Shown here in pieces: positions 4,772 to 54,208 of a stretch of DNA of 64,000 nucleotides. Under the pieces are notes generated by a model. That model saw nothing but the letters and a program-made list of their open reading frames with translations. It did no database searches and was not told where the DNA came from. The position numbers and the translations under genes are program-made. Position 1 is the stretch's first letter, and each line of letters opens with the position of its first letter. Source of the stretch: Mobula hypostoma (Eukaryota); the NCBI RefSeq assembly GCF_963921235.1, contig NC_086097.1:1116001-1180000 (forward strand), in the 5' to 3' direction.

Positions 4772-5449
4772 CATTGTATATACTGCGTCCGGTGCTCCCG
4801 ATGTGGCCTTTTATATATTGGCGAGATCCGACACAGACTGGGAGACCGCTTTGCTGAACATCTACGCTCTGTCCGCCAGAGAAAGCAGGATCTCCCAGTG
4901 GCCACACATTTTAATTCCACATCCCATTCCCATTCTGACATGTCTATCCACGGCCTCCTCTACTGTAAAGATGAAGCCACACTCAGGTTGGAGGAACAAC
5001 ACCTTATATTCTGTCTGGGTAGCCTCCAACCTGATGGCATGAACATTGACTTCTCTAACTTCCGCTAATGCCCCACCTCCCCCTCGTACCCCATCTGTTA
5101 CTTATTTTTATACACACATTCTTTCTCTCACTCTCCTTTTTGTCCCTCTGAATATACCCCTTGCCCATCCTCTGGGTCCCCCCCCTCCTTGTCTTTCTTC
5201 CCGGACCTCCTGTCCCATGATCCTCTCGTATCTCTTTTGCCTATCACCTGTCCAGCTCTTGGCTCCATCCCTCCCCCTCCTGTCTTCTCCTATCATTTTG
5301 GATCTCCCCCTCCCCCTCCAACTTTCAAATCCCTTACTCACTCTTCCTTCAGTTAGTCCTGATGAAGGGTCTCGGCCTGAAACGTCGACTGCACCTCTTC
5401 CTAGAGATGCTGCCTGGCCTGCTGTGTTCACCAGCAACTTTTATGTGTA
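4772..5449 (+). mobile_element. Penelope-like element 3' part: GIY-YIG endonuclease, pseudo-LTR and hammerhead
   Basis: ORF 4739-5068 reads IYCVRCSRCGLLYIGE...HFN...GMNIDFSNFR, followed by a pyrimidine-rich pLTR. Confidence 0.92.
5355..5390 (+). ncRNA. Minimal hammerhead ribozyme motif (core intact)
   Basis: AGTC-CTGATGA-A-GGGT CTCG GCCT-GAAAC-GTC^GACT. Stem I AGTC/GACT; predicted cleavage after 5386. Confidence 0.8.
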
Positions 5450-6529
5450 CTACTTCTCCAACGTTGTTTTCCAGTGGTCCAATATCCACTCTCACCTCTA
5501 TTTTACACATTATGTATCTGAACAAAACTGTTGCTATCCTCTTTAATGTTATTGGCTAGCTTACTTTCCTATTCCACCTTTGCCTTCTTAGTGACTTTTT
5601 TAGTTGCCTTCTGTTGGTTTTTAAAAGCTTCCCAATCCTCTAACTTCCCACAAATTTTTGCTCAATTATATGCCCTCCGTTTGGCTTTTATGTTGGCTTT
5701 GACTTCTCTAATTAGCCATGGCTGTGTCATCTTTCCTTTAGAATACTTCTCTAGATATTCCCCCTCCTTTAATCCCACACCAATCTGATTTTCCCAATCT
5801 GCCTGCATATTGAAGTCCCCATGATGATGGTAACATTGCCTTTTCTGTCTCCCATTGTAATTTGCAGACCATATCCCTACTACTGTTTTGAGATCTGTAC
5901 ACAACTCCCACCAGGATCTTCTTACCCTTGCAGTTCCTTAGTTCTATCCACAAAGATTCAACAACTTCTGACCCTATTTCACCTCTATCTAATGATTTGA
6001 TTTCAATTTTCACCAACAGTACAATGCCATCCCCTCTACCTTCCTGCTTATCCTTTCGATACAATGTGTATCCTTAGACATTAAGCTCCCAGGTATCAGC
6101 CATAGTTCAGTGGTGCCTACAACATCTTACCTGCCAATCTGCATCTGTGCCACAAGTTCATCTACCTTATTCCATATACTGCACCCATTCAGATACAACA
6201 CCTTCAGTCCTGTATTCATCTGTTTTGATTTTGTTGCACCATGCTTAACCTTTTGATTCCTAACTCTGTTTGAGGTCTTACCAACATTTGCCTCCACAAC
6301 CTCTCCACTAACTGTTCTCATCCTGCTGCAACTCTAGTGTAAACCCCAATTTGCAGATTAATAAACCTTCCCGCTAGGATATTAGTCTCCGTCCAGTTGA
6401 GGTGCACACTGTCCCTTCTGTATTGGTCCAACTTTCTATGGAAGAGAGGCCAGTGATCCAAAAATCTTATGCCCTCCCTCCTACACCAACTCCTCAACCA
6501 TGTATTAAACTGTATCATCTTCCTGGCAT

Positions 6530-7032
6530 TACTGGAAGTTTGGGAAATCAATGTTCATGATATCAGGTTGGAGGCTACCCAAACGGAACATGAGGTGTTA
6601 TTCCTCCAATCTCAGTGCTAGCTTCCAACCTGATGGCATGAACATCAATACCTCAAATTTCCAGTAATGTCTCCCCAACAGCCCATCTCTTCTCCATTTC
6701 CCATGCGCTTTTCCCTCTCTCACCTTATCTCCTTGCTCGCCCATCGTCTCCCTCTGTGCTCCTTCCCCATTTTTCTTTCTTCCATGGCCTTCTGACTCTT
6801 TCACCAACCAACTTCCCAGCTCTTTACTTCATCCCTCCCCCTCCAGGTTTCACCTATCACCTGGTGGTCTCTCTCCCCTCCCTTCACCTTTTAGATCTAC
6901 TCCTCAGCTTTTTCTTCTCCAGTTCTGCTGCAAGGTTTCGGCCCGAAACGTCAACTGCTTGACCTGTTGAGTTCCTCCAGCATTTTGTTTGTCGCTTGGA
7001 TTTCCAGTATCTGCAGATATTCTCTTGTTTGT
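6530..7032. mobile_element. Old Penelope-like fragment with an inverted 5' piece
   Basis: A minus-strand piece (~6530-6615) is followed by the plus-strand PLE end. Degenerate hammerhead ...GGCCCGAAACGTCAACT near 6920-6957. Confidence 0.75.
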
Positions 7033-7819
7033 CCATTGTGATTGGTTAATTTAGAAACTGCAGCTGCTTTTCCCATTGGGAAGGTATGCTCTGCATGCAC
7101 TTTTAATTAAGTATGTTTGTTGAGTGTACATATGTTCGTTGAGTACTGTACACAGCTTTGTAGTGTCTGTAACTTGGAGAACATGAATCTTTGATCAAAT
7201 TTTTAGTTGTAAATAAATTATTAATATACCTGTTCGAATTTAGTGCATTTCCCATCTCACCTGCCAAACCCATGAACCCCATTCAACATTACAGTAGGTT
7301 AATTGGTCATCATAAATTGTCCTGTGATTAGGCTAGGGTTAAATAGGTGAGTTGATGGGTGGCATGGCTCTGTGGGTCAGAAGGGCCTGTTCTGCAATGT
7401 ATCTCTAAATAAATAATAAATAAAACAATGGGTGGCAATAATTGGTCTAATTTTGGATTCTGATCATGCCTTGGGATCGGTGCTAGGGCCTGAGCTATTC
7501 ATAACCTCTATCAATGACTTAAATGAGGGAATGAGAGGGTAAATATGTTGTCACAAGAGATTCTGTTGATGCTGAAATACCCTTTTGTGTCTGTTAATAT
7601 GTCACGTCTACTGCTTACGTAAAGCTGGGTGGGCAATGTGCACTGAGGAGGAGGCAGAACAAGGAATATAGATAGGATATGTACAGGCAACGACCCAGCA
7701 GATGGAATTTAATATGGGATACTATGAGGTCATCAACCCTGGAAGTAAAAAAGGATATTTTTTGTTCGATGGTGAGAAGTTGAAAGGTGCTGGTCTGCAG
7801 AGGGAGAGTCGTAAAATTA

Positions 7820-9400: not shown

Positions 9401-9559
9401 AGGGACAGGCGGTGTGTGGGGTGGAGGAAGAGACACGCTGTGGGGGGAGGGCGGTAGCGAGGGAGCGAGGGAGCGAGGGAGGGAGGGAGGGACACGCTAT
9501 AGGGTGTCGACGGTACCGGGAGCGGTACCGAGGGAGAAATGTCCTCGGTCTGTGTTGGG

Positions 9560-11090
9560 TGGTGGTGCCGACAGAGGGATGACCTGTGGGGTGAAGGGGT
9601 GGTGCCGAGAGAGGGGTGCCCTGTGGGGTGAGGCGGTGGTGGTGCCGAGAGAGGGATGACCTTTGGGGTGAGGGGGTGGTGCCGAGAGAGGGTGATCTGC
9701 GGGGTGGTGCCGAGAGAGGGATGACCTGTGGGGGGGGGGTGGTGCCGAGGGAGGGTGACCCGTGAGGGGGGGTGGTGGTGCTGAGAGAGGGTGACCTGTT
9801 GGGGGGGTGGTGCCGAGAGAGGGTGACCTGTGGGGTGGTGCCGAGAGAGGGTGACCTGTGGAGTGGTGTGAGGGGGTGGTGCTGAGAGAGGGATGCCCTG
9901 TGGGGTGGTGTGAGGGGGTTGTGCCGAGAGAGGGATACCCTGTGGGGTGGGGGGGGTGCAACGGTACTGAGGGAGACTCTGTGTTGTCAAGGTAGGAACA
10001 GCTGTAGCGGGGGGGTGCTACTGAGGGAGGGACACGCTGTGGGTGGGGACGGTCCCAAGGCAGGGGTACGCCATGTAGGGTGGGGGTGGCAATACCAAGG
10101 CAGGGACACACTGTGGGGATGTCACTACTGAGGGAGGTTCACGCTGTTTGGGGGGGGGGGCCGCGACCGAAGAAGGGATGCCTGTGTTGTGGGGGTGGTA
10201 TTGAAGGAGGGACGATCTGAGGTGTGGGGTGGATAGAGACACCCTGCAGGATTTGGGATGTGTGGGTTGGATGGGTGCACTTCAGAGGAGGGAAATCCCG
10301 GGAGGAGTTAGCGCTACCAAGGCAGGGACACACTGGGGGGGGGGGCGTTAGGGATATGCTGTGGGGAGGGCATGGTGCCAAGGGAGGATCACGCTTTCCG
10401 GGGGTTGTTCCACCGAGGGAGAGACACGCTGGGGGGGGGGTTTGGACATGCTTAGGGGGGGAATGCGCCAAGTTGTGCAGGCGGTTGTGCTACTGACAGA
10501 GGGGACATACTTGTTGGGGGGGTGTATGGAGGGAGGGACACCCTGTGTGGGGGTTCGCTACCATAGGAGCGACATGCTGTGGGGGGGGGGCTTACACTTC
10601 CAACGAAAGGACTCGCTGTGTGGGTGGTTGCACTACCGAAGGAGGGACACGCTAGTTGTGGGGGATGCTACCGGGGGGGGGTCATGCTTTAGGGGTGCAT
10701 GGGGGGATATATTACTGATAGTGGGATGCGCTGTGGGGGAGAGTGCAACTGAGGGAGGGACGCACTGTGTTGGGGGAGTGGGAGAGAGCAGTACTGAGTT
10801 AGGAACACACAGTAGGGAAGGGACGGCCTGTGGGAGGACTCGGGCGGTACTGAGGGAGAGACGTGGTACAAGGAGAGGGTCACGCCCTGTGGGGGGATGG
10901 TGCTAATGCAGGAACAAGCTGTGGGGGGTGTCGGATCCCTGATGGGGACCCACTGTGGAGGGGGTGGGGGTTCCGAGGGAGGAACGTGCTGTGGGGAGCA
11001 GATCCGAGACAGGGATCTGCTGTGGGAGATGCCGCCAAATGAATGCTGATGTGGGGTAGGTCTCGCTGTTCAGAATTGAAGGAGCACCCA
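9560..11090. repeat. G-rich minisatellite in ERG28 intron 1
   Basis: Repeated unit GGTGGTGCCGAGAGAGGG(A)TGACCTGTGGGG (~30-45 bp), homogeneous at 9560-9950 and decaying downstream. Confidence 0.9.
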
Positions 11091-11409
11091 ACTGGAGTTG
11101 ACTCAGGATGTACTCGGAATTATCAGTGAAATGTTTACTGAGGCGGTAGTACCTATGTTATAGGCTTCAGAAAGATGGGTAGCACTGGGAGAGGTATGAC
11201 ACGCAGGCAGACAGTGCAGCCACCTTTTGTGTCCATTCTCCTTGACTACTTTATTCCTGCTGCGGAGGCATGACCTGTCAGGGCAGCAGCAGCCAGGTCA
11301 ATAGTGCAGTGGCTGGCTCTGAGGTTCAGCAGGGAATAGTAACGTCAAGCCCCACTCTTCTTACATTCTCTCTGTCTCCCTACTTGTCTACAGTACTCTC
11401 CTCCTCTGT

Positions 11410-11703: not shown

Positions 11704-11707
11704 CAGG

Positions 11708-12327: not shown

Positions 12328-12364
12328 AGCCTGCTGCATTCACCAGCAACTTTGATGTGTGTTG
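12328..12364 (+). mobile_element. 37-bp PLE terminal remnant
   Basis: GCCTGCTGCATTCACCAGCAACTTTGATGTGTGTTG matches PLE ends elsewhere in the window. 13-bp TSD CTTTCCACATCTA (12315-12327 / 12365-12377). Confidence 0.85.
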
Positions 12365-13335
12365 CTTTCCACATCTATCCTATCTAGGCCTTTCAACATT
12401 GGAAAGGTTTCAATGAGATCCCACTCATCCTTCTAAATTCCAGTGAGTACAGACCCAGAACTATCAAACATTCCTTGGAAGTTAACCCTTTCATTCCTGG
12501 AATCATCCTTGTGAAACTCCTCTGAACCCTCTCCAATGCCAACACATCATTTCTAAGATGAGGGGCCCAAAACTGTTCACATTACTCAAGGTGGGGCCTC
12601 ACCAGTGCCTTATAAAGTCTCAGCTCTTATATTCTAGACCTCTTGAAATGAATACTAACATGGCATTTGTCTTCCTCACCACCAGCTTGACCTGCAAGTT
12701 AACCTTGAGGGTGTACTGCACAAGGACTCCCAAGTCCCTTTGGATCTCAGATTTTTGGATTTCCTCCCTGTTTAGAAAATTGACTGCACATTTACAAACT
12801 TTGTATTTATACTACCAAAGTACATGACCATGCATTTTTCCAACATTGTATTTCATTTGTCACTTTCTTGCCCATTACCCTAATCTGTCCAAGTCCTTCT
12901 GCGTCCTACCTGTCTCCTCAACACTACCTGCCCCTCCCCAATCTTTCTATCATCTGCAAACTTGGCAACAAAGCCATCTATTCCATTATCTAAATCATTT
13001 ATATACAGCATAAGAAGTCATCCCAACACAAGCCCCTGAGGAATACCAGTAGTCACTGGCAGCCAACCCCAAAAGGATCATTTTATTCCCACTCGCTGCC
13101 TCCTACCAATCAGCCAATGCTCTAACCACGTTAGTAACTTTCGTATAGTACCATGGGTTTTTAACTTGGTAAGCAGCCTCGTGTGGCACCTTGTCAAAGG
13201 CCTTCTTTAAGTCCAAATATACAACATCCACTACATCCCCTATATCTATCCTACTTGTAATCTCCTCAAAGAAGAATTCCAACAGGTTTGGCAGGCAGGA
13301 TTATCCCTGAAGGAAGCCATGCTGACTTTGTCCTA

Positions 13336-14390: not shown

Positions 14391-14703
14391 GTTTTCCCCC
14401 CTTTGTCTATACCCCTTGCCCATCCTCTGGGTTCCCCCCCGCCCTTTGTCTTTCTCCCTGGGCCTCCTGTCCCATGATCTTCTCATATCCCCTTTGCCAA
14501 TCACCTGTCCAGCTCTTGGCTCCATCCCTCCCCCTCCTGTCTTCTCCTATCATTTTGGATCTCCCCCTCCCCCTCTCAAATCTCTTACTAACTCTTCCTT
14601 CAGTTAGTCCTGACGAAGGGTCTCGGCCCGAAACGTTGACTGTGCCTCTTCCAAGAGATGCTGCCTGGCCTGCTGCGTTCACCAGCAACTTTGATGTGTG
14701 TTG
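14391..14703 (+). mobile_element. PLE pseudo-LTR in ERG28 intron
   Basis: Near-identical to 5150-5449; contains a hammerhead motif. Confidence 0.88.
14606..14641 (+). ncRNA. Minimal hammerhead motif with GUU cleavage triplet, sense to the ERG28 pre-mRNA
   Basis: AGTC-CTGACGA-A-GGGT CTCG GCCC-GAAAC-GTT^GACT. Confidence 0.75.
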
Positions 14704-15257
14704 ATTGATGCAAAATACTCATTTAGTTCATTAGCCATCTCCTTGTCCCCTGTTATTATTTCTCCTGTCTCATTTTCTAGCGGTCCTATGTCCACTCTCG
14801 TTTCTCTTTTATTTTTAACATACTTGAAAAACTTTTACTATCCATTTTGATATTATTTGCTAGCTTGTTTTCACATTTCATCTTTTTCCTTCTAATGATT
14901 TTTTTGTTCTCTGTACATTTTTTAAAACTTCCCAATCATCAAACTTCCCACTAAATTTTGCTTTGTTGTACGCCCTTTCTTTTGCTTTTACAATGGCTTT
15001 GACTTCCCTGGTCAGCCAGGGTGCATCAAAGGGTCTGGGGTGAGGATGAGCAAGACAGTTCCGTGTTGAGTGAACAGAGACTCAGTGTGTGTCAGGATTT
15101 CTGCGGTGCTGAGTGTGAGTAGACCATGGTCTTCTGGTGAGTGTAAACAGGGGAGTCTGTGTATCAGGAATGCTCTGGGGGTGTGAGCATGGATCAGAGT
15201 TTTGGTTATGGGGAGAGATTGGACAGGCTGGGGTTGTTTCTCCTGGAGAACACGCTG

Positions 15258-22762: not shown

Positions 22763-23697
22763 CATACAACAGGAATTCTGCAGATGCTGGAAATTCAAGC
22801 AACACACATCAAAGTAGCTGGTGAACGCAGCAGGCCAGGCAGCATCTCTAGGAAAAGGTACAGTCGGCGTTTCAGGCCGAGACCCTTCGTCAGGACTAAC
22901 TGAAGGAAGAGATAGTAAGAGATTTGAGAGAGGGAGGAGGAGATCCAAAATGATAGGAGAAGACAGGAGGGGGAGGGATGGAGCCAAGAGCTGGACAGGT
23001 GATAGACAAAAGGGACATGAGAGGATCATGGGACAGGAGGTCCGGGGAGAAAGACAAGTGGGGGGGAACCCAGAGGATGGGCAAGGGGTATAGTGAGAGG
23101 GACAGAGGGAGAAGAAGGAGAGTGAGAGAAAGAATGTGTGTATAAAAATAAATAACGGATGGGGTACGAGGGGGAGGTGGGGCACTAGCGGAAGTTAGAG
23201 AAGTGGATGTTCATGCCATCAGGTTGGAGGCCTACCCAGACGGAATATAAGGTGTTGTTCCTCCAACCTGAGTGTGGCTTCATCTTTACAGTAGAGGAGG
23301 CCGTGGATAGACATGTCAGAATGGGAATGGGATGTGGAATCAGGTTGGAGGAACAACACCTTATATTCCGTCTGGGTAGCCTGAGAGCATGAACATTGAC
23401 TTCTCTAACTTCCGCTAATGCCCCACCTCCCCCTCGTACCCCATCCGTTATTTATTTTTATACACACATTCTTTCTCTCACTCTCCTTCTCCCTCTGACT
23501 ATACCCCTTGCCCATCCTCTGGGAACCCCCCCTGCCCTTGTCTTTCTCCCTGGACCTCCTGTCCCATGATCCTCTCATATCCCCTTTGCCAATCACCTGT
23601 CCAGCTCTTGGCTCCATCCCTCCCCCTCCTGTCTTCTCCTATCATTTTGGATCTTCCCCTCCCTCTCCCACTTTCAAATCTCTTACTAGCTCTTCCG
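22763..23697. mobile_element. Penelope-like element with inverted pLTR arrangement
   Basis: Minus arm 22763-23340 and plus arm 23341-23697; 13-bp TSD CATGTTACTCCAA (22750-22762 / 23698-23710). Hammerhead at 22862-22897 (minus) has GCC instead of GTC. Confidence 0.9.
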
Positions 23698-23793
23698 CAT
23701 GTTACTCCAAGTGAGGCCTCACCAGTGCTTTATAAAGCCTCAACTTTGCATCCTTACTTTTATATTCTCGTCCTCTTGAAATTATTACCAAAA

Positions 23794-25722
23794 TTAGAGA
23801 TAAAGGTGGGAAGATGTGCCTGGAGGCTGTGGAGGTGAGCGAGGTCCTCAATGAATACTTCTCTTTGGTATTCACCAATGAGAGGGAACTTGATGATGGT
23901 GAGGACAATATGTGTGAGGCTGATGTTCTGGAGCATGTTGATATTAAGGGAGAGGAGGTGTTGGAGTTGTTAAGATACATTAGGACGGAGAAGTCCCCGG
24001 GGCCTGATGGAATATTCCCCAGGTTGCTCCACGAGGCGAGGGAAGAGATCGCTGGGCCTCTGGCTAGGAACTTTATGTCCTCGTTGTCCACAGGAATGGT
24101 ACCGAAGGATTGGAGGGAGGCAAATGTTGTCCCCTTGTTCAAAAAAGGTAGTAGGGATAGTCCGGGTAATTATAGACCTGTAAGCCTTACGTCTGTGGTG
24201 GGAAAGCTGTTGGAAAAGATTCTTAGAGATAGGATCTATGGGCATTTAGAGAATTATGGTCTGATCAGGGACAGTCAGCATGGCTTTGTGAAGGGCAAAT
24301 CGTGTCTAACAAGCCTAGTAGAGTTCTTTGAGGAGGTGACCAGGCATATAGATGAGGGTAGTGCAGTGGATGTGATCTACATGGATTTTTGTAAGGCATT
24401 TGACAAGGCTCCACATGGTAGGCTTATTCAGAAAGTCAGAAGGCATGGGATCCAGGGAAGTTTGGCCAGGTGGATTCAGAATTGGCTTGCCTGCAGAAGG
24501 CAGAGGGTCGTGGTGGAGGGGGTACATTCAGATTGGAGGGTTGTGACTAGTGGTGTCCCACAAGGATCTGTTCTGGGACCTCTACTTTTCATGATTTTCA
24601 TTAACGAACTGGATGTGGGGGTAGAAGGGTGGGTTGGCAAGTTTGCAGACGACACAAAGGTTGGTGGAGGTGTAGATAGTGTAGAGGATTGTCAAAGATT
24701 GCAGAGAGACATTGATAGGATGCAGAAGTGGGCTGAGAAGTGGCAGATGGAGTTCAACCCGGAGAAGTGTGAGGTGGTACACTTTGGAAGGACAAACTCC
24801 AAGGCAGAGTACAAAGTAAATGGCAGGATACTTGGTAGCGTGGAGGAGCAGAGGGATCTGGGGGTACATGTCCACAGATCCCTGAAAGTTGCCTCACCGG
24901 TAGATAGGGTAGTTAAGAAAGCTTATGGGGTGTTAGCTTTCATAAGTCGAGGGATAGAGTTTAAGAGCCGCGATGTAATGATGCAGCTCTATAAAATGCA
25001 ACAACAGGAATTCTGCAGATGCTGGAAATTCAAGCAACACACATCAAAGTTGCTGGTGAACGCAGCAGGCCAGGCAGCATTTCTAGGAAGAGGTACAGTC
25101 GACGTTTCAGACCGAGAGCCTTCGTCCTGACATTGCTGCGTTCACCAGCAACTTTGATATGTGTTGCAGCTCTATAAAACTCTGGTTAGGCCACACTTGG
25201 AGTACTGTGTCCAGTTCTGGTCGCCTCACTATAGGAAGGATGTGGAAGCATTGGAAAGGGTACGGAGGATATTTACCAGGATGCTGCCTGGTTTAGAGAG
25301 TATGCATTATGATCAGAGATTAAGGGAGCTAGGGCTTTACTCTTTGGAGAGAAGGAGGATGAGAGGAGACATGATAGAGGTATACAAGTTATTAAGAGGA
25401 ATAGATAGAGTGGACAGCCAGTGCCTCTTCCCCAGGGCACCACTGCTCAATACAAGAGGACATGGCTTTAAGGTAAGGTGTGGGAAGTTCAAGGGGGATA
25501 TTAGAGGAAGATTTTTTACTCAAGAGAGTGGTTGGTGTGTGGAATGCACTGCCTGAGTCAGTGGTGGAGGCAGATACACTAGTGAAATTTGAGAGACCAC
25601 TAGACAGGTATATGGAGGAATTTAAGGTGGTGGGGTTATATGGGCGGCAGGGTTTAAGGGTTGGCACAGCATTGTGAGCTGAAGGGCCTGTACTGTGCTG
25701 TACTATTCTGTGTTCTATGTTC
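23794..25722 (+). mobile_element. 5'-truncated CR1 (family A) with a long RT ORF, interrupted by a PLE
   Basis: ORF 23814-25130 contains the RT domain (KFADDTK); the C-terminus continues in ORF 25161-25556; TTCTATG tail. Confidence 0.95.
24997..25164. mobile_element. Short inverted PLE insertion
   Basis: TSD TGCAGCTCTATAAAA (24982-24996 / 25165-25179). Minus-strand PLE end followed by a short plus-strand copy. Confidence 0.88.
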
Positions 25723-35688: not shown

Positions 35689-36358
35689 GTGTGATATACT
35701 GCGTCCGGTGCTCCCGGTGCAGCCTTCTTTATATTGGCGAGACCCGATGCAGACTGGGAGACAGTTTCACTGAACACCTACACTCTATCTGCCAGAGGAA
35801 GCAGGATCTCCCAGTGGCCACTCATTTTAATTCCACATCCGCTTCCCATTCTGATATGTCCATCCATGGCCTCCTCTACTGTTGAGGTGAAGCCACACTT
35901 AGGTTGGAGGAACAACTCATATTCTGTCTGGGTAGCCTCCAACCTGATGGCATGAACATTGACTTCTGTTAATGCCCCTCTTCCACTTCTTACCCCATCT
36001 CTTTGTTTATTTATTCCCCTTTCTTTTTCTTTTTTCTCCCTCTGTCCCTCTCACTATATCTTCCTCTGGGCTCCCCTCCCCCTTTTTCCCCCTTGACCTC
36101 CCGTCCCATGTTCCTCTCCCTTCTCCAGCCTTGTATCCCTTTTGCCAATCAACTTTCCAGCTCTTGGCTCCATCCCTCCCCCTGCTGTCTTCTCCTATCA
36201 TTTCGGATCTCCCTCACCCCCTCCCACTTTCAAATCTCTTACTAGCTCTTCTTTCTGATAATCCTGACGAAGGGTCTCGGCCCGAAATGTCGACTGTACC
36301 TCTTTCTAGAGATGCTGCCTGGCCTGCTGTATTCCACCAGCATTTTGTGCGTGTTGCT
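35689..36358 (+). mobile_element. Penelope-like element (GIY-YIG end plus pLTR)
   Basis: VIYCVRCSRCSLLYIGETR motif; 11-bp TSD TAAAAATCTTT (35678-35688 / 36359-36369). Confidence 0.92.
36260..36295 (+). ncRNA. Hammerhead motif variant, sense in ERG28 intron
   Basis: AATC-CTGACGA-A-GGGT CTCG GCCC-GAAAT-GTC-GACT. Core intact, but stem I has a mismatch and ACGT has changed to ATGT. Confidence 0.6.
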
Positions 36359-38836
36359 TAAAAATCTTTACGTTCGGTCTCCATTCAAATGTGAAATTAT
36401 AGTTTTTAATAAATATGTATAACAGGACAGTCAATATAACAAATACATTAGCGTCAGCATGAATTAAGCAGTCTGATGGCCTGGTGGAAGAAGCTGTCCT
36501 GGGGTCTGCTGGTCCTGGCTTTTATGCTGCAGTACCATTTCCCAGATGGCAGCAGCTGGAACAGTTTGTGGTTGGGGTGACTCAGGTCTCCAGTGATCCT
36601 TCGGGCCCTTTTTACACAGCGGTCTTTGTAAAAATCCAGAATAGTGGGAAGTTCACATCTACAGATTCGCTGGGCTGTCTGCACCACTCTTTACGGAGTC
36701 CTGTGATCAAGGGAAGTACAGTTCCCACACCAGGCAGTGATGCAGCCAGTCAGGATGCTCTTAATCATGCCCTTATAGAAAGTTCTAAGAATTTGGGGGG
36801 GCCATACCAGATTTCTTCAACCGTCTGAAGTGAAAGAGGTGCTGTTGTGCCTTTTTCACCCCACAGCCGGTATGTCCGGACCACGTGATATTTATGCTGA
36901 TGAGCTTAAAGCTGTTCAGCCGCTCAAGCCCAGATCCATCGGTGTCAATAGCTGGCATTCCTCCTGTAGTCCACAGCAAACTCCTTGGTTTTTGCGACAT
37001 TGAGGGAGAGGTTTTCTTGACATGACTGTGTCAGGGTGATGACTTTTCTGTAGGCTGCCTCGTTATTATTTGCCATAAGGTCAATAAATAAAGTATCATC
37101 TGCAAATTTAATTAGCAGATTGGAGCTTTGGGTGGCAATACAACCATAGGTCGCCTACCGACACAACCGATCGACAGACGACACAATAGCCACAGCTCTA
37201 CACATTGTCTTTACACACCTGGAGAAGAGGGATGCTTATGTGAGAGTGCTGTTCTTGGACTACAGTTCTGCATTCAACACCATAATTCCCACCAGGCTCA
37301 ACAAGAAGCCCAGAGACCTCAGCCTTCATACTGGCTTGTGTGGCTGGATCCTGGACTTCCTGTCAGATCATTGGGAGGTGGAAGTCATCATCCTCTCTGT
37401 AGGCTGCCTCATTATTATTTGAGATTAGGCTAATCAGTGTAGCAGATTGGAGCTGTGGGTGGTGACATAGCCATGGGTATACAGAGAGTAAAGGAGGGGG
37501 CTTAGTGAGCGGCAGAGGTCCTTTCTTTTTGCATACTTCGGATTCAGAGATGACCAAGCTGCTGGTCGCATCATCTGCAGGTCTCCTCAGGGCTCAGTAT
37601 TGGCGACATTGAATCCAGCTAAAAAAGATCTAGCTTGTCTGGGAGAGAGGCATTGATACTGGAAACTCTACTGCGTTTCGCTTTGAAGTCTGCGATGGTG
37701 TGCAGACCCTGCCATAAGCTGCATGTGTTGTTAGTGGAGAGTTGAGTCTGGATCTTGTCTCTGTTGTTGTTCCACTGCCTTGATGACTTTGCGCAGATCA
37801 TAGCTACATTTCTTGAGCTCTTACTGATTACCGGCAATGTAAGCCCTGTCTCGCTGCTCGTAAGTGCTGCTCGTAAGGAACTGTTAATCCAGGGTTTCTC
37901 ATTCGGGAAGACCCTGACTGATTTTTGGGGGACAACATCCTTGATGCACTTCTGGATGAAACTCGTGATCCTTTCCGTGAACTTGGAGACATCCTCATCA
38001 TGGAAGACATTCCAGTCAACATCATCAAAGCTATTCTGCAGCATGGTTGGACCAACAGTGGACGGTTTTAACTATGGCTGCCTCTTGTTTCAGCTTCTGC
38101 CTGTACTTTGACACCTGAAAAAATGAGGAGTGATCTAATTTTCCAAATGGAGGACGGAGGAGCGCTTTGTAAGCGTTGCAAAAGGGATGTCAAGTAAGCT
38201 ATCTCCCCGTATGCCCACCTGGATGTGTTGGCAAAACTTCGGAGGGACTTCAGTCAGCGATGTTCTGTTAAAGTCACCTGCTTCGGAGGGACTTTAGTCA
38301 GCGAGGCTCTGTTATAGTTTCCACATCCTTGCAGCTTCTGGGGTAGTGGTGTACATTCCACCTCTGGCCAAATTCAGACTGGCACTGGAGAAGCTGAGCA
38401 GTGTAATCAGCATTGTGAGAGATTTCAACCAGTCCAGCTCAAAGTCTCTGAATAACTACCACCAACATCAGACCTGTGGAACCAGAGGAGCCAACACACT
38501 TGACCACTGTTATACCACTATCAAGAACGCTTACTGTATCATCCCATGCCCACACTTTACAAAGTCTGATCACCTGGTTGTTCTTCTACTCCCAGTGTAC
38601 AGGCAGAGACTGAAAACTGCAGCACGAATGGTGAGAACCAGGAAGGTACACACGAGGGAAGAAGAGGAACGCTTACAGGATTGTTTTGAGTTGGTGGACT
38701 GGATTCATCTTCAAATCTGAATGATATGCTGCAGTTATCATTGATTTCATTAAAATGTGTGGCCTCAAGAATATACCACATACCCAAATCAAATGCTGTG
38801 GATGAACCAGGAGATTCGTGGCCTACTGAGGGCTAA

Positions 38837-48319: not shown

Positions 48320-51300
48320 GGAAATCAGGGTCCAGGATTTCTCTGACCGGGTGCACGACATCCTGGTACGAGAGGGAAAGCAACCAGAAGTCGTGATACA
48401 TGTTGGCACCAACGACATAGGCAGGAAGAGGGATGAGGTCTTGAAGTGTGAGTTTCAGGAACCAGGCAGAAGGCTGAAGAACAGGACCTCAAGGGTGGCG
48501 TTCTCATGATTGTTGCCAGTGCTATGTGACAGTGATGGTAAGAATTGGAGGAGATGGCAGTTGAATGCGTGGCTGAGGAGTTGGTGCAGGGGGCTGGGTT
48601 TTAGATTTTTGGATCATTGGGATCTCTTCTGGGGAAGGTGGGACCTGTACAGATTGGATGGGTTGCACCTGAACTCGAGGGGGAGCAATATCCTTGCAGG
48701 TAGGTTTGCTAGCAGGGTTCGGGAGGGTTTAAACTAATTTTTAAGGGGGATGGGACCCGGAGTGATAGAGCAGTGAAAGAAGTGCGTGGAGTGAAACCAG
48801 ATCTAACATATAGAGAGGCTTTGAGGAAAGAGAAGCAGAATAAACGGTGTAAAGGTAGTAAGATAAAAGGGCTAAACTGTGTGTACCTCAATGCAAGAAG
48901 CATCAGGAACAAAGGTGATGAACTGAAAGCTTGGATACATACATGGAATTATGATGTCGTGGCCATTACAGAGACTTGGCTGGCACCAGGGCAGGAATGG
49001 ATTCTCAGTATTCCTGGATTTCACTGCTTTAAAGGGGATAGAGAGGGCGGAAAAAGGGGAGGAGGGGTGGCATTACTGGTCAGGGATACTATTACAGCTA
49101 CAGAAAGAGTGGGTAATGTAACAGGATCCTCTTTTGAGTCAGTATGGGTGGAAGTCAGGAACAGGAAGGGAGCAGTTACTCTATTGGGGGTATTCTATAG
49201 GCCCCCTGGTAGCAGCAGAAATACTGAGGAGCAGATTGGGAGGCAGATTTTGGAAAGGTGCAGAAATAACAGGGTTGTTATCATGGGTGACTTTAACTTC
49301 CCTAATATTGATTGGCACCTGATTAGTTCCAATAGTTTGGACGGGGCAGAGTTTGTTAAGTGTGTCCAGGACGGATTCCTGTCACACTATGTTGACAGGT
49401 CGACTAGAGGGAATGCCATACTAGATCTAATATTAGGTAATGAACCAGGTCAGGTCACAGATCTGTCAGTGGGTGAGCGTCTGGGGGACAGTGACCACCG
49501 CTCCCTGGCCTTTAGCATAATCATGGAAAAGGATAGAATCAGAGAGGACAGGAACATTTTTAATTGGGGAAAAGCAAATTATGATGCTATAAGGCTAGAA
49601 CTTGAGGGTGTGAATTGGGACGATATTTTTGCAGGGAAATATATTATGGACATGTGGTCATGTTTAGAGATCTCTTGCAGGATGTTAGGGATAAATTTGT
49701 CCTGGTGAGGAAGATAAAGAATAGTAGGGTGAAGGAACCATGAGTGACAAGTGAGGTGGAAAATCTAGTCAGGTGGAAGAAGGAAGCATACATGAGGTTT
49801 AGGAAGCAAGGATCAGATGGGTCTATTGAGAAATACAGGGTAGCAAGAAAGGAGCTTAAGAAGGGGCTGAGGAGAGCAAGAAGGGGGCATGAAAAGGCCT
49901 TGGCGAGTAGGGTAAAGGAAAACCCCAAGGCATTCTTCAATTATGCTAAGTACAAAAGGATGACAGGAGTGAAGGTAGGGCTGATTAGAGATAAAGGTGG
50001 GAAAATGTGCCTGGAGGCTGTGGAAGTGAGCGAGGTCCTCAATGAATACTTCACTTTGGTATTCACCAGTGAGAGGGAACTTGACGGTGAGGACAATATG
50101 AGTGAGGTTGATGTTCTGGAGCATGTTGATATTAAGGGAGAGGAGGTGTTGGAGTTGTTAAGATACATTAGGACGGATAAGTCCCCGGAGCCTGATGGAA
50201 TGTTCCCCAGGCTGCTCCACGAGGCGAAGGAAGAGATTACTGAGCCTCTGGCTAGGATCTTTATGTCCTCATTGTCTACGGGAATGGTACCAGAGGATTG
50301 GAGGGAGGCGAACGTTGTCCCCTTGTTCAATAAAGGTAGTAGGGATAGTCCGGGTAATTATCGACCAGTGAGCCTTACGTCAGTGGTGGGAAAGCTGTTG
50401 GGAAAGGTTCTTAGAGATAGGATCTATGGGCACTTAGAGAATCATGGTCTGATCAGGGACAGTCAGCATGGCTTTGTGAAGGGCAGATCGTGTCTAACAA
50501 GCCTGATAGAGTTCTTTGAGGAGGTGACCAGGCATATAGATGAGGGTAGTGCAGTGGATGTGATCTATATGGATTTTAGTAAGGCATTTGACAAGGATCC
50601 ACACAGTAGGCTTATTCAGAAAGTCAAAAGGCATGGGATGCAGGGAAGTTTGGCCAGGTGGATTCAGAATTGGCTTTCCTGCAGAAGGCAGAGGTCGTGG
50701 TGGAGGGAGTACATTCGAATTGGAGGGTTGTGACTAGTGGTGTCCCACAAGGATCTGTTCTGGGACCTCTACTTTTCGTGATTTTTATTAACGACCTGGA
50801 TGTGGTGGGTAGAAGGGTGGGTTGGCAAGTTTGCAGACGACACAAAGGTTGGTGGTGTTATAGATAGTGCAGAGGATTGTCGAAGATTGCAGAGAGGCAT
50901 TGATAGGATGCAGAAGTGGGCTGAGAAGTGGCAGATGGAGTTCAACCCGGAGAAGTGTGAGGTGGTACACTTTGGAAGGACAAACTCCAAGGCAGAGTAC
51001 AAAGTAAATGGCAGGATACTTGGTAGTGTGGAAGAGCAGAGAGATCTGGGGGTACGTGTCTACAGATCCCTGAAAGTTGCCTCACAGGTAGATAGGGTAG
51101 TTAAGAAAGCTTATGGGGTGTTGGCTTTCATAAGTTGAGGGATAGAGTTTAAGAGTCGCGATGTAATGATGCAGCTCTATAAAACTCTGGTTAGGCCACA
51201 CTTGGAGTACTGTATCCAGTTCTGGTCGCCTCACTATGGGAAGGATGTGGAAGCATTGGGAAGGGTACAGAGGAGATTTACCAGGATGCTGCCTGGTTTA

Positions 51301-51720: not shown

Positions 51721-51799
51721 AGACATGTCTGGCCAGCAAGAACACAATGGGCTGAATGTCCTTCTCTGCAATGAATATGTGGTTTGCCTTTGTTGAGGG

Positions 51800-52335
51800 A
51801 GGGAGGGTCCTTTAACATCTGTCGGACGATGCTGAGGATGTTCTATGAGTCTGTGGTGGCCAGTGCGATCATGTTTGCTGCTGTGTGCTGGGGCAGCAGG
51901 CTGAAGGTAGCAGACACCAACAGAATCAACAAACTCATTCGTAAGGCCAGTGATGTTGTGGGGATGGAACTGGGCCCTCTGACGGTGGTGTCTGAAAAGA
52001 GGATGCTGTCCAAGTTGCATGCCATCTTGGACAATGTCTCCCATCCACTACATAATGTACTGGTTGGGCACAGGAGTACATTCAGCCAGAGACTCATTGC
52101 ACCGAGATGCAACACAGAGCGTCATAGGAAGTCATTCCTGTCTGTGGCCATCAAACTTTACAACTCCTCCCTTTGAGGGTCAGACACCCTGAGCCAATAG
52201 GCTGGTCCTGGACTTATTTCCTGGCATAATTTACATATTACTATTTAATTATTTATAGTTTTATTACTATTTAATTATTTATGGTGCAACTGTAACGAAA
52301 ACCAATTTCCCCCGGGATCAATAAAGTATGACTAT
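51800..52335 (+). mobile_element. Rex1/Babar-type LINE 3' end
   Basis: FYESVVASAIMFAAVCW...SHPLH...TERHRKSF motif; ends GGGATCAATAAAGTATGACTATG. Confidence 0.82.
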
Positions 52336-53979
52336 GGAGAAGGACTTGATATGAGGGGTGGGAGGTTGGATGATGTCTTGAGAATGGTTTGGTTACTGAC
52401 GATACCAGAATTTCTTTCCCATTGAGCACCAGGGATGAACCATTGAAATGGACCAATGATCTTACATCAATGCAAGGGGAATTATTGGGGGAGATGTGAT
52501 TTTGTGATTTTAAGGTATGAGATTTATGTACATTTGGAAAGACAGAAAATGATTAGTTATAGTCAACATGGTTCTGTGTGGGAGAAACCGTATTTCACTA
52601 ATTTGAGGCGTTTGAGGAAATAACCAAGGAGATTGATGAAATCTGGTAGGGTAGTGAAAAAGTCTTTAGGCACACTGGCCTTCATCGGTCAGGGCACTGA
52701 GTATTGAAGTTGGGATGTTACGTTACAGTTGTACAAGTTGTCAGGGCTTTCTGCTTTGGCTCTTGGTAGGATCACCCACAGGTCAAAAGGTAGAGGACAG
52801 TCTAAGAGTGGTCCACTGATCCTCCAGGTTCAGTGGTTCAGCTCAGGGCTAACAACTCTAACTGGTAAAGTAAAATTATTATGGAAACAGCAATGAAGAA
52901 TCCTTCTATATCGGAGTGCAACGGTATTCCTAAGTCTTCACCGGGACTTGCATGAGTGACTGCACTGAAAATTGAGGAAACTACTGACATAATGATGACA
53001 TATTGAACTTCGCAAGATATCAAGCATATTTTTAAGAGGGTAATCAAGGGGGCAAAGAGGAGTGAGATAGATTTTGCAGGCAAGGTAAAGGAAAATTCCA
53101 AGAGACTTAATAACTATATTCTCGGCAGTTTCCAGAGTAGGTTACATGTTCAGCACAAAATAGTGGGCCGAAGGGGCTGTAATAGAAACATAGAAAACCT
53201 ACAGCACAATACAGGCCCTTTGGCCTACAAAGCTGTGCTGTACATGTCCTTACCTGAGAAATTAACTAGGGTTACCCATAGCCCTCTATTTTACTGAGCT
53301 CTATATACCTGTTCAGGGGTCTCTTAAAAAAAACCCTATTGTGTCCACCTCCAACACCGTTGCTGGGAGCCCATTCCACACACACACCACTCTCTGTGTT
53401 TAAAAAAAGGCAACTTACCCCTGATATCTCTTCTGTACCTACTTCCAAGCACCTTAAAACTGTGCCCTCTCATGCTAGCCATTTCTGCCCTGGGAAAAAG
53501 CCTCTGACTATCGACACGATCAGTGCCTCTCATCATCTTATACATATCTTATCAGATCACCACTCATCCTCTGTCGCTCCAAGGAAAAAAGGCCGAGTTC
53601 ACTCAACCTATTCTCATAAGGCATGCTCCCCAATCCAGGCAAAATTCTTGTAAATCTCCTCTGCACCCTTTCTATGGTTTCCACATCTGTCCTATAGTGA
53701 GGTGATCAGAACTGAGCACAGTACTCCAAGTGGGGTCTGACCAGGGTCCTAGATAGCTGCAACATTACCTCTCAGCTCTTAAACTCAGTCCAACGATTGA
53801 TGAAGGCCAATGCACTGTCTGCCTTCTTAACCACAGAGATAACCTGCACAGCAGCCTTGAATGTCCTATGGAATCAGACCCCAAGATCCCTCTGATCCTC
53901 CACACTGCCAAGAGTCTTAACATTAATACTATATTCTGACATCATATTTGACCTACCAAAATGAACCACCTCACACTTA

Positions 53980-54208
53980 AGCAGCACACACAAAATGCTG
54001 GTGGAACACAGCAGGCCAGGCAGCATCTATAGGAAGATGTACAGTCAACGTTTCGGGCCGTGACCCTTTGTCAGGATTCTGATGAAGGGTCTAGACCCGA
54101 AACGTCAACTGTACTTCTTCCTATAGATGCTGCCTGGCCTGCTGCATTCCACCAGTATTTTGTGTGTGTTGCTTGAATTTCCAGCATCTGCAGATTTTCT
54201 CGTGTTTG
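53980..54208. mobile_element. Palindromic PLE insertion with back-to-back hammerhead motifs
   Basis: 13-bp TSD CACCTCACACTTA (53967-53979 / 54209-54221); inverted arms meet at about 54076. Confidence 0.9.
54075..54110 (+). ncRNA. Hammerhead motif with compensatory stem II (GGGT CTAG ACCC)
   Basis: CTGATGA-A-GGGTCTAGACCC-GAAAC-GTC-AACT. The 5' strand of stem I is disrupted by the inversion junction. Confidence 0.65.

What the first reader, a model, noticed from the sequence alone, without database searches (positions are those of the whole stretch)
5355..54110. Dispersed family of minimal hammerhead ribozymes carried by Penelope-like element termini
Seen in sequence: a motif AGTC-CTGAYGA-A-GGGT[CTCG]GCCC-GAAAC-GTC-GACT recurs in the PLE pseudo-LTRs. 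Copies are at 5355(+), 14606(+), 22862(-), ~25097(-, truncated), 36260(+), 54043(-) and 54075(+), with decayed ones near 2490(-) and 6920(+). It contains the hammerhead core (CUGANGA, GAAA, GUH), a 4-bp stem II whose U-G pair becomes U-A in the 54075 copy, and stem I (AGUC/GACU). Stem III is reduced to the palindrome ACGU. Established: PLEs are known to carry such minimal type-I hammerheads, which are proposed to act as dimers. Inference: this family seeds self-cleaving RNA motifs densely (about 9 in 64 kb) in this genome. Copies differ at diagnostic positions (GUC at 5384, GUU at 14635, GCC in the 22862 copy), giving a natural active/inactive series.
Basis: partly seen in the sequence, partly recalled or inferred. 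Interest (0 to 1): 0.8.

Follow-up and report, generated by a model that had tools for sequence, protein, structure and literature searches.

The report
Hammerhead motifs in ray Penelope elements
Nine copies of a small hammerhead-ribozyme motif sit near the 3' ends of broken copies of a Penelope-like jumping gene in what looks like a ray genome, which is the arrangement already published for this class of element, so the finding is correct but ordinary.

Summary
All nine motif copies are at the stated places. A covariance model built from them finds exactly those nine (49.5-63.9 bits; next hit 9.2 bits). A strict minimal-hammerhead descriptor hits 2 copies in the window and none in 300 shuffles.

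The carrier is a Penelope-like element (PLE). In the 4 copies long enough to show it, the motif lies on the coding strand. In copy A it starts 285 nt after the stop codon of a GIY-YIG endonuclease domain. Relatives of that domain carry RT + CX5CX2C linker + GIY-YIG.

Insertions show target-site duplications, heavy 5' truncation, head-to-head inverted arms and a ~30-nt extension at one end only. All are published PLE traits. The motif has the published PLE min-HHR features: an extra base after A9, G10.1-C11.1, and a palindromic ACGU in place of stem III.

Corrections:
- All copies are dead 5'-truncated fragments.
- Only 2 of 9 pass the full descriptor and 4 of 9 keep the core.
- The "active/inactive series" is largely CpG decay (10 of 21 changes).
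- In-window covariation is not significant.
- Rfam does not recognise the motif.

Cleavage was not tested. This is a new member of a known kind, of low interest.

The parts
5354..5391 (+). Hammerhead motif copy A. Core intact, with G10.1.U11.1. The predicted cut is between 5386 and 5387.
   Evidence: passes the strict descriptor; 61.8 bits.
4775..5455 (+). PLE fragment A. It holds the GIY-YIG endonuclease coding end (4775-5065, stop 5066-5068), a 285-nt spacer, the hammerhead and a shortened tail. It is inserted in an older LINE-derived repeat.
   Evidence: (PF01541, E 1.2e-3, 19.5 bits, below the 22.6 cut-off).
14605..14642 (+). Hammerhead motif copy E. Core intact, with a GUU triplet.
   Evidence: passes the strict descriptor; 63.9 bits.
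14399..14708 (+). PLE fragment E. It holds only spacer, hammerhead and tail. It is inserted about 50 nt from A's site in another copy of the same older repeat.
22861..22898 (-). Hammerhead motif copy D. U16.1 is changed to C (GCC), which breaks A15.1-U16.1 and the palindrome.
   Evidence: 62.6 bits.
22771..23340 (-). PLE fragment D. It holds the endonuclease C-terminus, spacer, hammerhead and the full tail with the ~30-nt extension.
23340..23708 (+). Inverted 5'-truncated partner arm of D. It is joined head to head at 23340 and stops just before the hammerhead position.
   Evidence: It explains the sub-threshold MIR408 hairpin hit.
36259..36296 (+). Hammerhead motif copy B. Core intact. C15.2 is changed to U (AUGU, wobble palindrome), and helix I has one A.C mismatch.
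   Evidence: 62.3 bits.
35689..36359 (+). PLE insertion B, complete as an insertion unit. It is flanked by the 10-bp duplication AAAAATCTTT (35679-35688 and 36360-36369). The endonuclease frame carries an internal stop.
53980..54208 (.). One insertion unit made of two head-to-head arms. Arm F runs 54078 to 53980 on the minus strand, with its hammerhead at 54042-54078 and G8 changed to A. Arm G runs 54079-54208 on the plus strand, with its hammerhead from C3 at 54079 to 54111. The unit lies in a LINE and is flanked by a 13-bp duplication (53967-53979 and 54209-54221). Only the G end has the ~30-nt extension.
   Evidence: (three empty sites in other copies of the LINE).
24997..25164 (.). Insertion unit H. 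The long arm runs 25126 to 24997 on the minus strand, with a hammerhead that lacks C3, U4 and the helix I 5' strand (25096-25126). A short inverted tail arm lies at about 25134-25164. The unit is flanked by a 15-bp duplication (24982-24996 and 25165-25179).
2487..2524 (-). Decayed hammerhead copy C, with C3, A6, G12 and U16.1 all changed. It lies in PLE fragment 3209-2393, which reaches furthest into the ORF (the linker plus the endonuclease).
   Evidence: 49.5 bits.
6920..6957 (+). Decayed hammerhead copy I, with A6, A9 and G10.1 changed. It lies in a PLE fragment of about 6619-6990, which has an inverted endonuclease arm at 6625-6525.
   Evidence: 52.1 bits. The inverted arm explains the sub-threshold mir-1304 hit.
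12328..12367 (+). A tenth, extremely truncated insertion of the same element. It holds 40 bp of tail only and no hammerhead. It is flanked by the 10-bp duplication TCCACATCTA.

Best explanation
These are genomic copies of the minimal type-I hammerhead motif that canonical endonuclease-bearing Penelope-like elements carry in their terminal (pLTR) region. The family here looks like a ray PLE with a Neptune/Nematis-type CX5CX2C linker.

Shown:
- The motif lies on the coding strand. In copy A it starts 285 nt after the GIY-YIG stop codon. It lies about 100 nt before the element's 3' end (102 nt from the cut site in copy G).
- It has CUGAYGA, one extra A, a 4-bp helix II (GGGU/GCCC), GAA, ACGU, C17 and a 4-5-bp helix I.
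- All ten in-window insertions are 5'-truncated dead copies with PLE-type structure.

Inferred from published work on relatives:
- In transcripts of master copies, two motifs pair through the ACGU palindrome to build a shared helix III (a double hammerhead). The two motifs could come from tandem units or from two RNAs.
- Probably helped by the element's own protein, the RNA is then cut after C17 (5386|5387 in copy A), which trims multimeric or read-through PLE RNA.
- The in-window copies are not expected to do anything. Most have lost core bases or helix I.
For: Motif and count:
-, as given in the observation check.

Published PLE min-HHR features, listed in PMC4209133 (parts 1-2 read):
- An extra base between A9 and 10.1 is present in 9 of 9 copies.
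- 10.1-11.1 is G-C in 5 copies and G.U in 3, of 9.
- 15.2-16.2 is complementary in 9 of 9 (8 C-G, 1 U.G).
- Helix I is short.
- Pairs occur on opposite strands.

Carrier is a PLE:
- GIY-YIG domain on the same strand in 4 of 4 copies long enough to show it.
- The best relatives are ray proteins at 94% and 88% identity, with YIDD, a Cys linker and GIY-YIG.
- Relatives of 800-1000 aa carry RVT_1 plus GIY-YIG.

Insertion anatomy, as described for PLEs in PMC8557442 (passages):
- Target-site duplications of 10-15 bp at 4 units.
- Four head-to-head inverted junctions.
- A ~30-nt extension at one end only.

Conservation beyond the window. 9,615-13,927 contigs from three runs of two related organisms lie on the 716-nt copy A.
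- Depth is high over the endonuclease end (about 305,000-949,000 in X9) and over hammerhead plus tail (625,000-1,146,000).
- Depth is 5-10 times lower in most of the spacer (51,000-111,000 in bins 5087-5254).
- Many contigs lose similarity at 5355 (looking upstream) and at 5391 (looking downstream) in all three runs. Those places are the outer edges of helix I.
- Inside 5355-5391 the rows shown list only two variable places (5363, 5378), both CpG transitions.
Against: - Rfam (4227 models) gives no hammerhead match at gathering score, at E up to 10 on the whole window, or on 111 nt around copy E.
- The predicted minimum-energy fold of the monomer is not the hammerhead fold, because G5-G8 pairs with 15.2-C17. 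The double-hammerhead structure is less stable than two separate monomers (copy E: -17.3 against -23.8 kcal/mol).
- Fold z-scores are unremarkable (-1.25 and -0.83).
- In-window covariation does not exceed shuffles (85.9% against 85.1% of cells paired; 192 of 500 shuffles reach it).
- The motif is no better conserved than its upstream neighbour among window copies (0.917 against 0.926).
- No RT domain and no tandem unit of this PLE lies in the window.
- The runs are only guessed to be RNA and are contigs, so they show neither transcription nor ends.
- Only part of the variant table was printed (41 rows not shown).
- Published PLE hammerheads cleave poorly in vitro even as dimers (PMC4209133). 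In the one reconstituted PLE, cleavage needed protein and was not required for insertion (PMC11167929, passages).
Confidence: 0.82

Rival explanations
1. The block is a conserved PLE RNA signal whose selected role is not self-cleavage. It could be part of the protein-binding or reverse-transcription-initiation region together with the tail, or simply a stable hairpin. On this reading the hammerhead likeness is inherited but catalytically idle in this family.
For: - The tail box AGATGCTGCCTGGCCTGCTG just downstream is at least as conserved as the motif.
- The minimum-energy fold is an extended hairpin, not the hammerhead.
- In the Anolis Poseidon element, ribozyme mutants did not affect insertion in vitro, and no RNA-seq reads ended at the cut site (PMC11167929, passages).
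- PMC8557442 (passages) notes that PLE clades without hammerheads proliferate well.
Against: - The conserved island ends at the outer edges of helix I (5355 and 5391).
- In the two least-decayed copies every catalytic-core base is kept, together with the extra base and G10.1-C11.1. That is more than a hairpin needs.
- The Anolis motif does cleave when protein is added, and C3/G8 mutants abolish cleavage.
Confidence: 0.12
2. The short hammerhead-plus-tail units are members of a non-autonomous hammerhead retroelement (an animal non-LTR retrozyme or SINE-like element) that borrows PLE machinery. They would then not be termini of PLE copies.
For: - Three arms begin within 9 nt of the motif's 5' edge: F at 54078, G at 54079, H at 25126.
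- In one search many contigs lose similarity at 5355-5357.
- A 2026 preprint relates animal retrozymes to PLE pLTRs (10.64898/2026.07.22.740005; abstract and passages).
Against: - There is no tandem array containing the motif. 15 tandem-repeat rows were found, none at a motif copy.
- 5' ends form a graded series from 40 bp to more than 800 bp.
- The longer copies (A-D) run continuously from the endonuclease ORF through the spacer into the motif.
Confidence: 0.04
3. The match is a chance resemblance. The hammerhead boxes are short, and a descriptor can find them in any abundant repeat.
For: - Rfam models do not recognise the motif.
- The copies are related, so nine copies count as one event.
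- Cervera and de la Pena themselves note descriptor bias.
Against: - 0 of 300 shuffled windows contain a single strict-descriptor hit.
- The motif has features not needed for the boxes: the extra base, G10.1-C11.1 and the palindrome.
- It sits where PLEs are known to carry hammerheads, downstream of a GIY-YIG ORF on the same strand.
Confidence: 0.02

Closest known systems
Minimal hammerheads (min-HHR) of metazoan Penelope-like elements, Cervera and De la Pena 2014 (PMC4209133; parts 1-2 read)
   Same: - Type-I topology with a short helix I (4-5 bp).
- An unpaired base between A9 and 10.1.
- A G10.1-C11.1 pair.
- A palindromic 15.2-16.2 with no real helix III.
- Location in the PLE terminal repeat region.
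- Mostly single motifs in truncated PLEs, with some pairs on opposite strands 100-700 bp apart.
- Reported in fish PLEs (Xena, Poseidon, Neptune).
   Different: - Helix II here is only 4 bp with a tetraloop. The paper describes 7-8 bp in Schistosoma and 6 bp in Drosophila virilis.
- The two opposite-strand motifs at 54042-54111 are directly abutting.
- The host appears to be a ray. I found no paper in the held library that describes this family.
Small hammerhead variants of PLEs that cleave as dimers, Lunse, Weinberg and Breaker (RNA Biol). I saw this only as a reference and through its description in the review PMC6765202. The paper itself is not held.
   Same: Stem III is reduced to a short palindrome, so two cores can build a shared stem III. 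The association with PLEs is the same.
   Different: I could not compare sequences or consensus with that paper. Dimer formation here rests only on the ACGU palindrome (6 of 9 copies), and the computed energy does not favour it.
Hammerhead of the Poseidon element PAc of Anolis carolinensis, Frangieh et al. 2024 (PMC11167929; passages)
   Same: - The motif lies between the pLTR and the sequence that forms the 3' 'tail' of genomic insertions.
- Insertions end downstream of the motif, consistent with reverse transcription starting inside the RNA.
- In copies A and G the core box CUGAUGA contains an AUG 25 nt before the cut, as in PAc.
   Different: - In 5 of 9 copies the box reads CUGACGA, which is also the family majority (84% C at 5363 in X9).
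- The frame after the motif is not kept open between subfamilies. An ORF start inside the motif is therefore not supported here.
- The linker type points to Neptune/Nematis rather than Poseidon.
Animal non-LTR retrozymes, Cervera and de la Pena 2020 (PMC7229834; search listing only) and Li et al. 2026 preprint (abstract and passages)
   Same: Type-I hammerhead with a weak helix III, and a link to PLE pLTRs.
   Different: Retrozymes are tandem arrays. No array with the motif lies in the window.

Membership tests
Hammerhead ribozyme | Conserved core bases C3 U4 G5 A6 N7 G8 A9, G12 A13 A14, A15.1-U16.1 and H17. | tested here: met
   All core bases are present in 4 of 9 copies (A, E, B, G). The other five have one to four core changes or lack C3/U4.
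Hammerhead ribozyme | Helices I and II flank the core. | tested here: met
   Helix II has 94.4% of cells paired and helix I 77.8%, over 9 copies. This is not above column shuffles (85.9% against 85.1% overall), so it is descriptive only.
Hammerhead ribozyme | A helix III that closes the three-way junction within one molecule. | tested here: not met
   Only ACGU with no loop lies between GAA and C17. It can pair only between two molecules.
Hammerhead ribozyme | A match to a curated Rfam hammerhead covariance model. | tested here: not met
   No hammerhead family matched at gathering score or at E up to 10, on the whole window or on 111 nt around copy E.
Hammerhead ribozyme | Site-specific self-cleavage after position 17. 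| not testable with these tools
   Only contigs were available for the runs that hold the element, and contigs cannot show RNA ends.
PLE minimal hammerhead (Cervera and De la Pena 2014) | An unpaired base between A9 and 10.1. | tested here: met
   An A at alignment column 14 is invariant in 9 of 9 copies.
PLE minimal hammerhead (Cervera and De la Pena 2014) | A G10.1-C11.1 pair. | tested here: met
   G-C in 5 copies, G.U in 3 and unpaired in 1, of 9. The G.U forms are CpG transitions.
PLE minimal hammerhead (Cervera and De la Pena 2014) | Palindromic 15.2-16.2, allowing a dimer helix III. | tested here: met
   C-G in 8 copies and U.G in 1, of 9. The full ACGU is present in 6 of 9.
PLE minimal hammerhead (Cervera and De la Pena 2014) | Lies in the terminal repeat region of a PLE, on the ORF strand. 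| tested here: met
   The motif is on the endonuclease ORF strand in 4 of 4 copies that retain coding sequence. In copy A it starts 285 nt after the endonuclease stop.
Penelope-like element, canonical EN+ type | A C-terminal GIY-YIG endonuclease. | tested here: met
   The window copy scores 19.5 bits against PF01541, below the 22.6 cut-off. Full-length relatives score 27.2-27.3 bits, above it. The YIGE-type motif is seen directly.
Penelope-like element, canonical EN+ type | A reverse transcriptase in the same ORF. | tested here: inconclusive
   No PLE RT lies in the window; tblastn finds only endonuclease-end fragments. It is present in the closest database proteins (YIDD). Of three longer relatives scanned, RVT_1 scores 32.6 bits in one, above the 29.6 cut-off, and 27.1 and 23.6 bits in the other two, below it.
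Penelope-like element, canonical EN+ type | Insertion anatomy: 5' truncation, inverted 5' arms, target-site duplications, and an extension at one end. | tested here: met
   - Target-site duplications of 10-15 bp at 4 units.
- Four head-to-head junctions.
- The ~30-nt extension is present at the G end and absent at the F end of one unit.
Penelope-like element, canonical EN+ type | A partial-tandem pLTR-ORF-pLTR arrangement. | tested here: not met
   None is seen in this window. This bears on these copies, not on the family.
Animal non-LTR retrozyme | Head-to-tail tandem array of hammerhead-bearing units. | tested here: not met
   None of the 15 tandem-repeat rows overlaps a motif copy.

The most novel reading that the evidence does not exclude
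The 5' edge of the hammerhead may be a preferred 5' end of this PLE's template RNA, either a start site or a processing site.

Three of about 13 arm ends in the window fall within 9 nt of that edge (54078, 54079, 25126). In one search, many contigs in all three runs lose similarity at 5355-5357. At 5357 the unmatched upstream parts show little mutual agreement.

If true, the 100-170-bp 'hammerhead + tail' units with target-site duplications would be run-off copies made when reverse transcription starts at the tail copy nearest the RNA's 5' end. That would make hammerhead + tail the minimal mobilisable unit, and a direct route from PLE termini to animal retrozymes. The branch-point-like TACTAAC, pyrimidine tract and CAG that end 2 nt before helix I recall the Drosophila virilis Penelope intron, which ends at helix I.
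Probability: 0.15. Interest if true: 0.45.

Novelty: new member of a known kind. Interest (0 to 1): 0.2.

Why it matters
This is a clean, well-bounded example of the published link between Penelope-like elements and minimal hammerheads, in a cartilaginous fish lineage. It comes with precisely delimited insertion units: target-site duplications, inverted arms and a one-sided extension. It adds no new principle.

Its practical value is twofold:
- It supplies a set of natural variants for a cleavage assay. Two copies are intact (A, E), one has a wobble palindrome (B), and two are single-hit core mutants (D with U16.1C, F with G8A).
- It is a caution for annotation. Rfam misses these motifs, and the inverted arms produce false microRNA-like hairpin hits.

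Tried and rejected
- **Rfam.** Gathering threshold, E-value threshold and a 111-nt close-up gave no hammerhead.
- **Whole genome.** None is held for this window, so no genome-wide census was possible.
- **More copies through a hammerhead-independent anchor.** I searched the 19-nt tail box in metagenome contigs (66 loci) and genome contigs (36 loci). 0 of 102 loci have hammerhead boxes upstream; they are chance matches in bacterial DNA.
- **PLE relatives in viral contigs.** 74 pattern matches, none confirmed.
- **Raw DNA reads of another species (X21).** 1 read laid; uninformative.
- **Cleavage ends in RNA.** Not obtainable. The three runs that hold the element are kept as contigs, their RNA status is a guess, and the single read-laying run is spent.
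- **An ORF start inside the motif, as in Anolis PAc.** Rejected for lack of support. The AUG in the core box is present in only 2 of 9 copies, the family majority reads ACG, and the frame after the motif is closed or shifted between subfamilies. The full-length relatives found are at most 49% identical, too distant to compare N-termini.
- **Stem covariation.**
  - Not above shuffles.
  - The apparent C-G to U-A double change in copy G is an artefact. Its four 'helix I' bases 54075-54078 are the reverse complement of arm F's.
- **Thermodynamic support.** None.
- **A and E as duplicates of one composite.** I first read them this way because they share flanks. Rejected: they are separate insertions about 50 nt apart in two copies of an older repeat.
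- **Earlier findings of this scan.** Nothing for this genome or sequence. A word search returned two notes from other genomes; one, on rotifer Athena hammerheads, reached the same kind of verdict.
- **Lunse et al.** The paper could not be read.

Full report
**Observation.**
- The pattern CTGAYGA-N13-GAAAC, with up to one mismatch, occurs 6 times against 0.68 expected. 0 of 100 shuffles reach 6.
- The three weaker copies align over all 40 columns with the others.
- A covariance model built from the nine copies and run over both strands with filters off returns those nine at 49.5-63.9 bits. Nothing else scores above 9.2 bits.
- A strict minimal-hammerhead descriptor that I scripted hits copies A (5359) and E (14610). 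0 of 300 dinucleotide shuffles of the window have any hit.
- Rfam does not recognise the motif at any threshold tried. That is expected for a hammerhead with no intramolecular helix III, but it is still a failed membership test.

**Anatomy of the motif.**
The majority form reads UAGUC / CUGACGA / A / GGGU-CUCG-GCCC / GAA / ACGU / C / GACUG. In hammerhead terms:
- Helix I is 4-5 bp and open-ended, which makes the motif type I.
- The core box carries one extra A before helix II.
- Helix II is 4 bp, including a U.G pair, and is closed by a tetraloop.
- G12-A14 follow, then A15.1-C15.2-G16.2-U16.1 with no loop, then C17.
- The cut is predicted after C17, between 5386 and 5387 in copy A.

Cervera and De la Pena list the features that mark metazoan PLE hammerheads (PMC4209133, parts 1-2 read). 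They are the extra base between 9 and 10.1, the G10.1-C11.1 pair, the palindromic 15.2-16.2 and a short helix I. All are present here:
- Extra base in 9 of 9 copies.
- G-C in 5 copies and G.U in 3, of 9.
- C-G in 8 copies and U.G in 1, of 9.

**The carrier is a Penelope-like element.**
- A self-comparison of the window shows that the motif sits in a repeat of up to about 680 bp.
- The 5' part of that repeat is an open frame reading IYCVRCSRCGLLYIGE...FSNFR-stop. It scores for the GIY-YIG domain at E 1.2e-3 and 19.5 bits, just under Pfam's 22.6 cut-off.
- Its best database relatives are predicted proteins of two rays at 94% and 88% identity. Upstream of the GIY-YIG part they carry an RT motif (RYIDDC) and a CX5CX2C linker.
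- Relatives of 800-1000 aa were found at up to 49% identity. Three were scanned against Pfam. GIY-YIG scores 27.2 and 27.3 bits in two of them, above the cut-off, and 20.8 bits in the third. RVT_1 passes its 29.6-bit cut-off in one (32.6 bits) and falls below it in the other two (27.1 and 23.6 bits).
- A Cys linker between RT and endonuclease is the mark of the Neptune and Nematis clades according to PMC8557442 (passages). I did not build a tree, so the clade is an inference.
- tblastn with four of these proteins finds only endonuclease-end fragments of the PLE in the window. There is no RT. The other RT and AP-endonuclease ORFs in the window belong to LINEs.
- In all 4 copies that retain coding sequence, the motif is on the ORF strand. 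In copy A it starts 285 nt after the stop codon.

**Insertion units.**
Four units can be delimited to the base by target-site duplications:
- B: 35689-36359, 10-bp duplication.
- F/G pair: 53980-54208, 13-bp duplication, with three empty sites in other copies of the host LINE.
- H: 24997-25164, 15-bp duplication.
- A 40-bp tail-only insertion: 12328-12367, 10-bp duplication.

Further structure:
- Four loci (D, I, F/G, H) have a head-to-head inverted partner arm.
- The full 3' end lies about 100 nt after the cut site. Its last ~30 nt are present in D, G, H, C and I, but absent in B and F. Within the F/G unit this extension is therefore at one end only.
- Heavy 5' truncation, inverted 5' arms and a 30-40-bp extension at one end are exactly what PMC8557442 describes for PLEs.
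- An insertion end that lies downstream of the hammerhead fits the internal start of reverse transcription shown for the Anolis Poseidon element (PMC11167929, passages).

**State of the copies.**
All are dead fragments.
- Core bases are intact in 4 of 9 (A, E, B, G).
- D has U16.1C and F has G8A.
- H lacks C3, U4 and the helix I 5' strand.
- C and I have three or four core changes each.
- G starts exactly at C3. The four bases that would serve as its helix I 5' strand are the reverse complement of arm F's. Its apparent C-G to U-A compensation is therefore a junction artefact.
- The ancestral motif holds five CpGs. 10 of the 21 changes in the seven younger copies are CpG transitions, while only 10 of the 37 sites compared are CpG sites. 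These include the T in CUGAUGA, U11.1, the GUU triplet and the AUGU palindrome.

It reflects methylation-driven decay after insertion, not selection.

**Is the motif constrained?**
Within the window, no.
- Pairwise identity of the motif (0.917) equals that of the upstream spacer (0.926) in the four long copies.
- In seven copies it equals that of the tail (0.868 against 0.865).
- Paired cells are 85.9% against 85.1% in column shuffles.

This is what dead copies should show, so it says little either way.

The wider family gives better evidence. Contigs of three runs from two related organisms pile onto copy A in the thousands: 13,927, 9,615 and 9,712 were laid.
- Depth is high over the endonuclease end and over motif plus tail. 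It is 5-10 times lower over most of the spacer. That pattern is not what a simple 5'-truncation gradient would give.
- Many contigs lose similarity at 5355 (upstream side: 160, 122 and 107 contigs) and at 5391 (downstream side: 233, 176 and 141). These are the outer edges of helix I.
- The unmatched downstream parts run into a variant spacer and then the same AGATGCTGCCTG box.
- Inside the motif, the printed rows list only 5363 (C in 84% of depth in X9) and 5378 as variable.

Caveats:
- These are contigs.
- Their RNA status is a guess, so I make no claim of expression.
- 41 variant rows were not printed.
- The similarity threshold favours sequences like copy A.

**Mechanism.**
Shown: the sequence can form helices I and II around a complete core, and it has a self-complementary ACGU where helix III should be.

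Inferred: two copies pair through ACGU and swap helix I strands, giving a double hammerhead with two active sites. This was proposed for such motifs by Forster et al. 1988 and by Cervera and De la Pena 2014, and it is described in the review PMC6765202.

The nearest-neighbour energy model does not favour this state. For copy E the double hammerhead is -17.3 kcal/mol, against -23.8 for two monomers folded into an extended hairpin in which G5-G8 pairs with 15.2-C17. Fold z-scores are ordinary. This agrees with the literature:
- PLE hammerheads cleave weakly in vitro even as dimers.
- The Anolis motif needed the element's protein to cleave.
- The Anolis motif was dispensable for insertion in vitro.

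My best reading is a weak ribozyme, dependent on a dimer or on protein, that trims PLE transcripts in master copies. The alternative, that the block is kept for another RNA role, cannot be excluded here.

**Comparison and novelty.**
Everything matches the published PLE min-HHR kind. The differences are small:
- A 4-bp helix II.
- Two motifs abutting head to head.
- A cartilaginous-fish host.

Three searches of the held library found no description of this particular family. The only chondrichthyan mention is one species in a 2026 retrozyme survey. Repbase and Dfam could not be consulted. The verdict is a new member of a known kind, of low interest.

**Left open.**
Three arm ends cluster within 9 nt of the motif's 5' edge. 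One search shows many contigs whose similarity begins at 5355-5357. A branch-point-like TACTAAC, a pyrimidine tract and CAG end 2 nt before helix I. This could be chance plus subfamily divergence, or it could mark a preferred 5' end of the template RNA. A census of the whole genome would settle it.

Noticed in passing
54075-54079; 25126; and at 5355-5357: Three of about 13 insertion-arm 5' ends fall within 9 nt of the hammerhead's 5' edge. In three runs many contigs lose similarity to copy A exactly there. At 5357 the unmatched upstream parts agree poorly with each other (0.38), as unrelated flanks would. This may be a preferred 5' end of the template RNA or a stop for the reverse transcriptase.
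   Followed up: partly
5328-5352 (copy A); 14579-14603 (copy E): A 3' splice-site-like signal ends 2 nt before helix I: TTACTCAC or TTACTAAC, then a CTCTTCCTT tract, then CAG. Cervera and De la Pena report that the Drosophila virilis Penelope intron ends at the 5' end of helix I. The CAG is kept in A, E and D, lost in B, and I has its own AG. The whole spacer is CT-rich, so this may be compositional.
   Followed up: partly
4690-4780 and 5455-5530; 14347-14398 and 14704-14790; 2325-1959 (-): PLE copies A and E are separate insertions about 50 nt apart in two diverged copies (72-77% identity) of one older LINE-derived, internally deleted repeat. Copy C ends about 70-90 nt from a third, uninterrupted copy of that repeat. 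This may be a target preference for that AT-rich stretch.
   Followed up: partly
5399-5446 and the matching places in all copies: The box AGATGCTGCCTGGCCTGCTG, about 14 nt after helix I, is at least as conserved as the hammerhead, and it has the highest contig depth. It can pair with CAGCATCT in the ~30-nt terminal extension. The predicted fold of the D copy pairs these two regions, but its z-score is only -0.83.
   Followed up: partly
23147-23457 and 6550-6646: Sub-threshold Rfam microRNA hits (MIR408 at 31 bits, mir-1304 at 26 bits) are the head-to-head inverted PLE arms of loci D and I. They are not microRNA genes.
   Followed up: yes
4775-4777 and 35689-35691: Copies A and B are 5'-truncated within about 2 nt of each other, right at the first residues of the GIY-YIG domain. 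With only two cases this may be coincidence, or it may mark a shared truncated source copy.
   Followed up: no
9445-9959: A G-rich minisatellite with a period of about 37 nt and about 11 copies. It gives long spurious ORFs on both strands.
   Followed up: no
34481-34939 (-) and 48156-48506 (+): ORFs with GDSL-lipase/esterase hits lie next to LINE endonuclease and RT ORFs. From recall, this looks like the esterase-type ORF1 of CR1/L2-like LINEs. Most of the window is LINE debris.
   Followed up: no
11636-11968 (+): A short ORF with an Erg28-like match (E 5.4e-6, 27.1 bits, above the cut-off). It may be a host exon.
   Followed up: no
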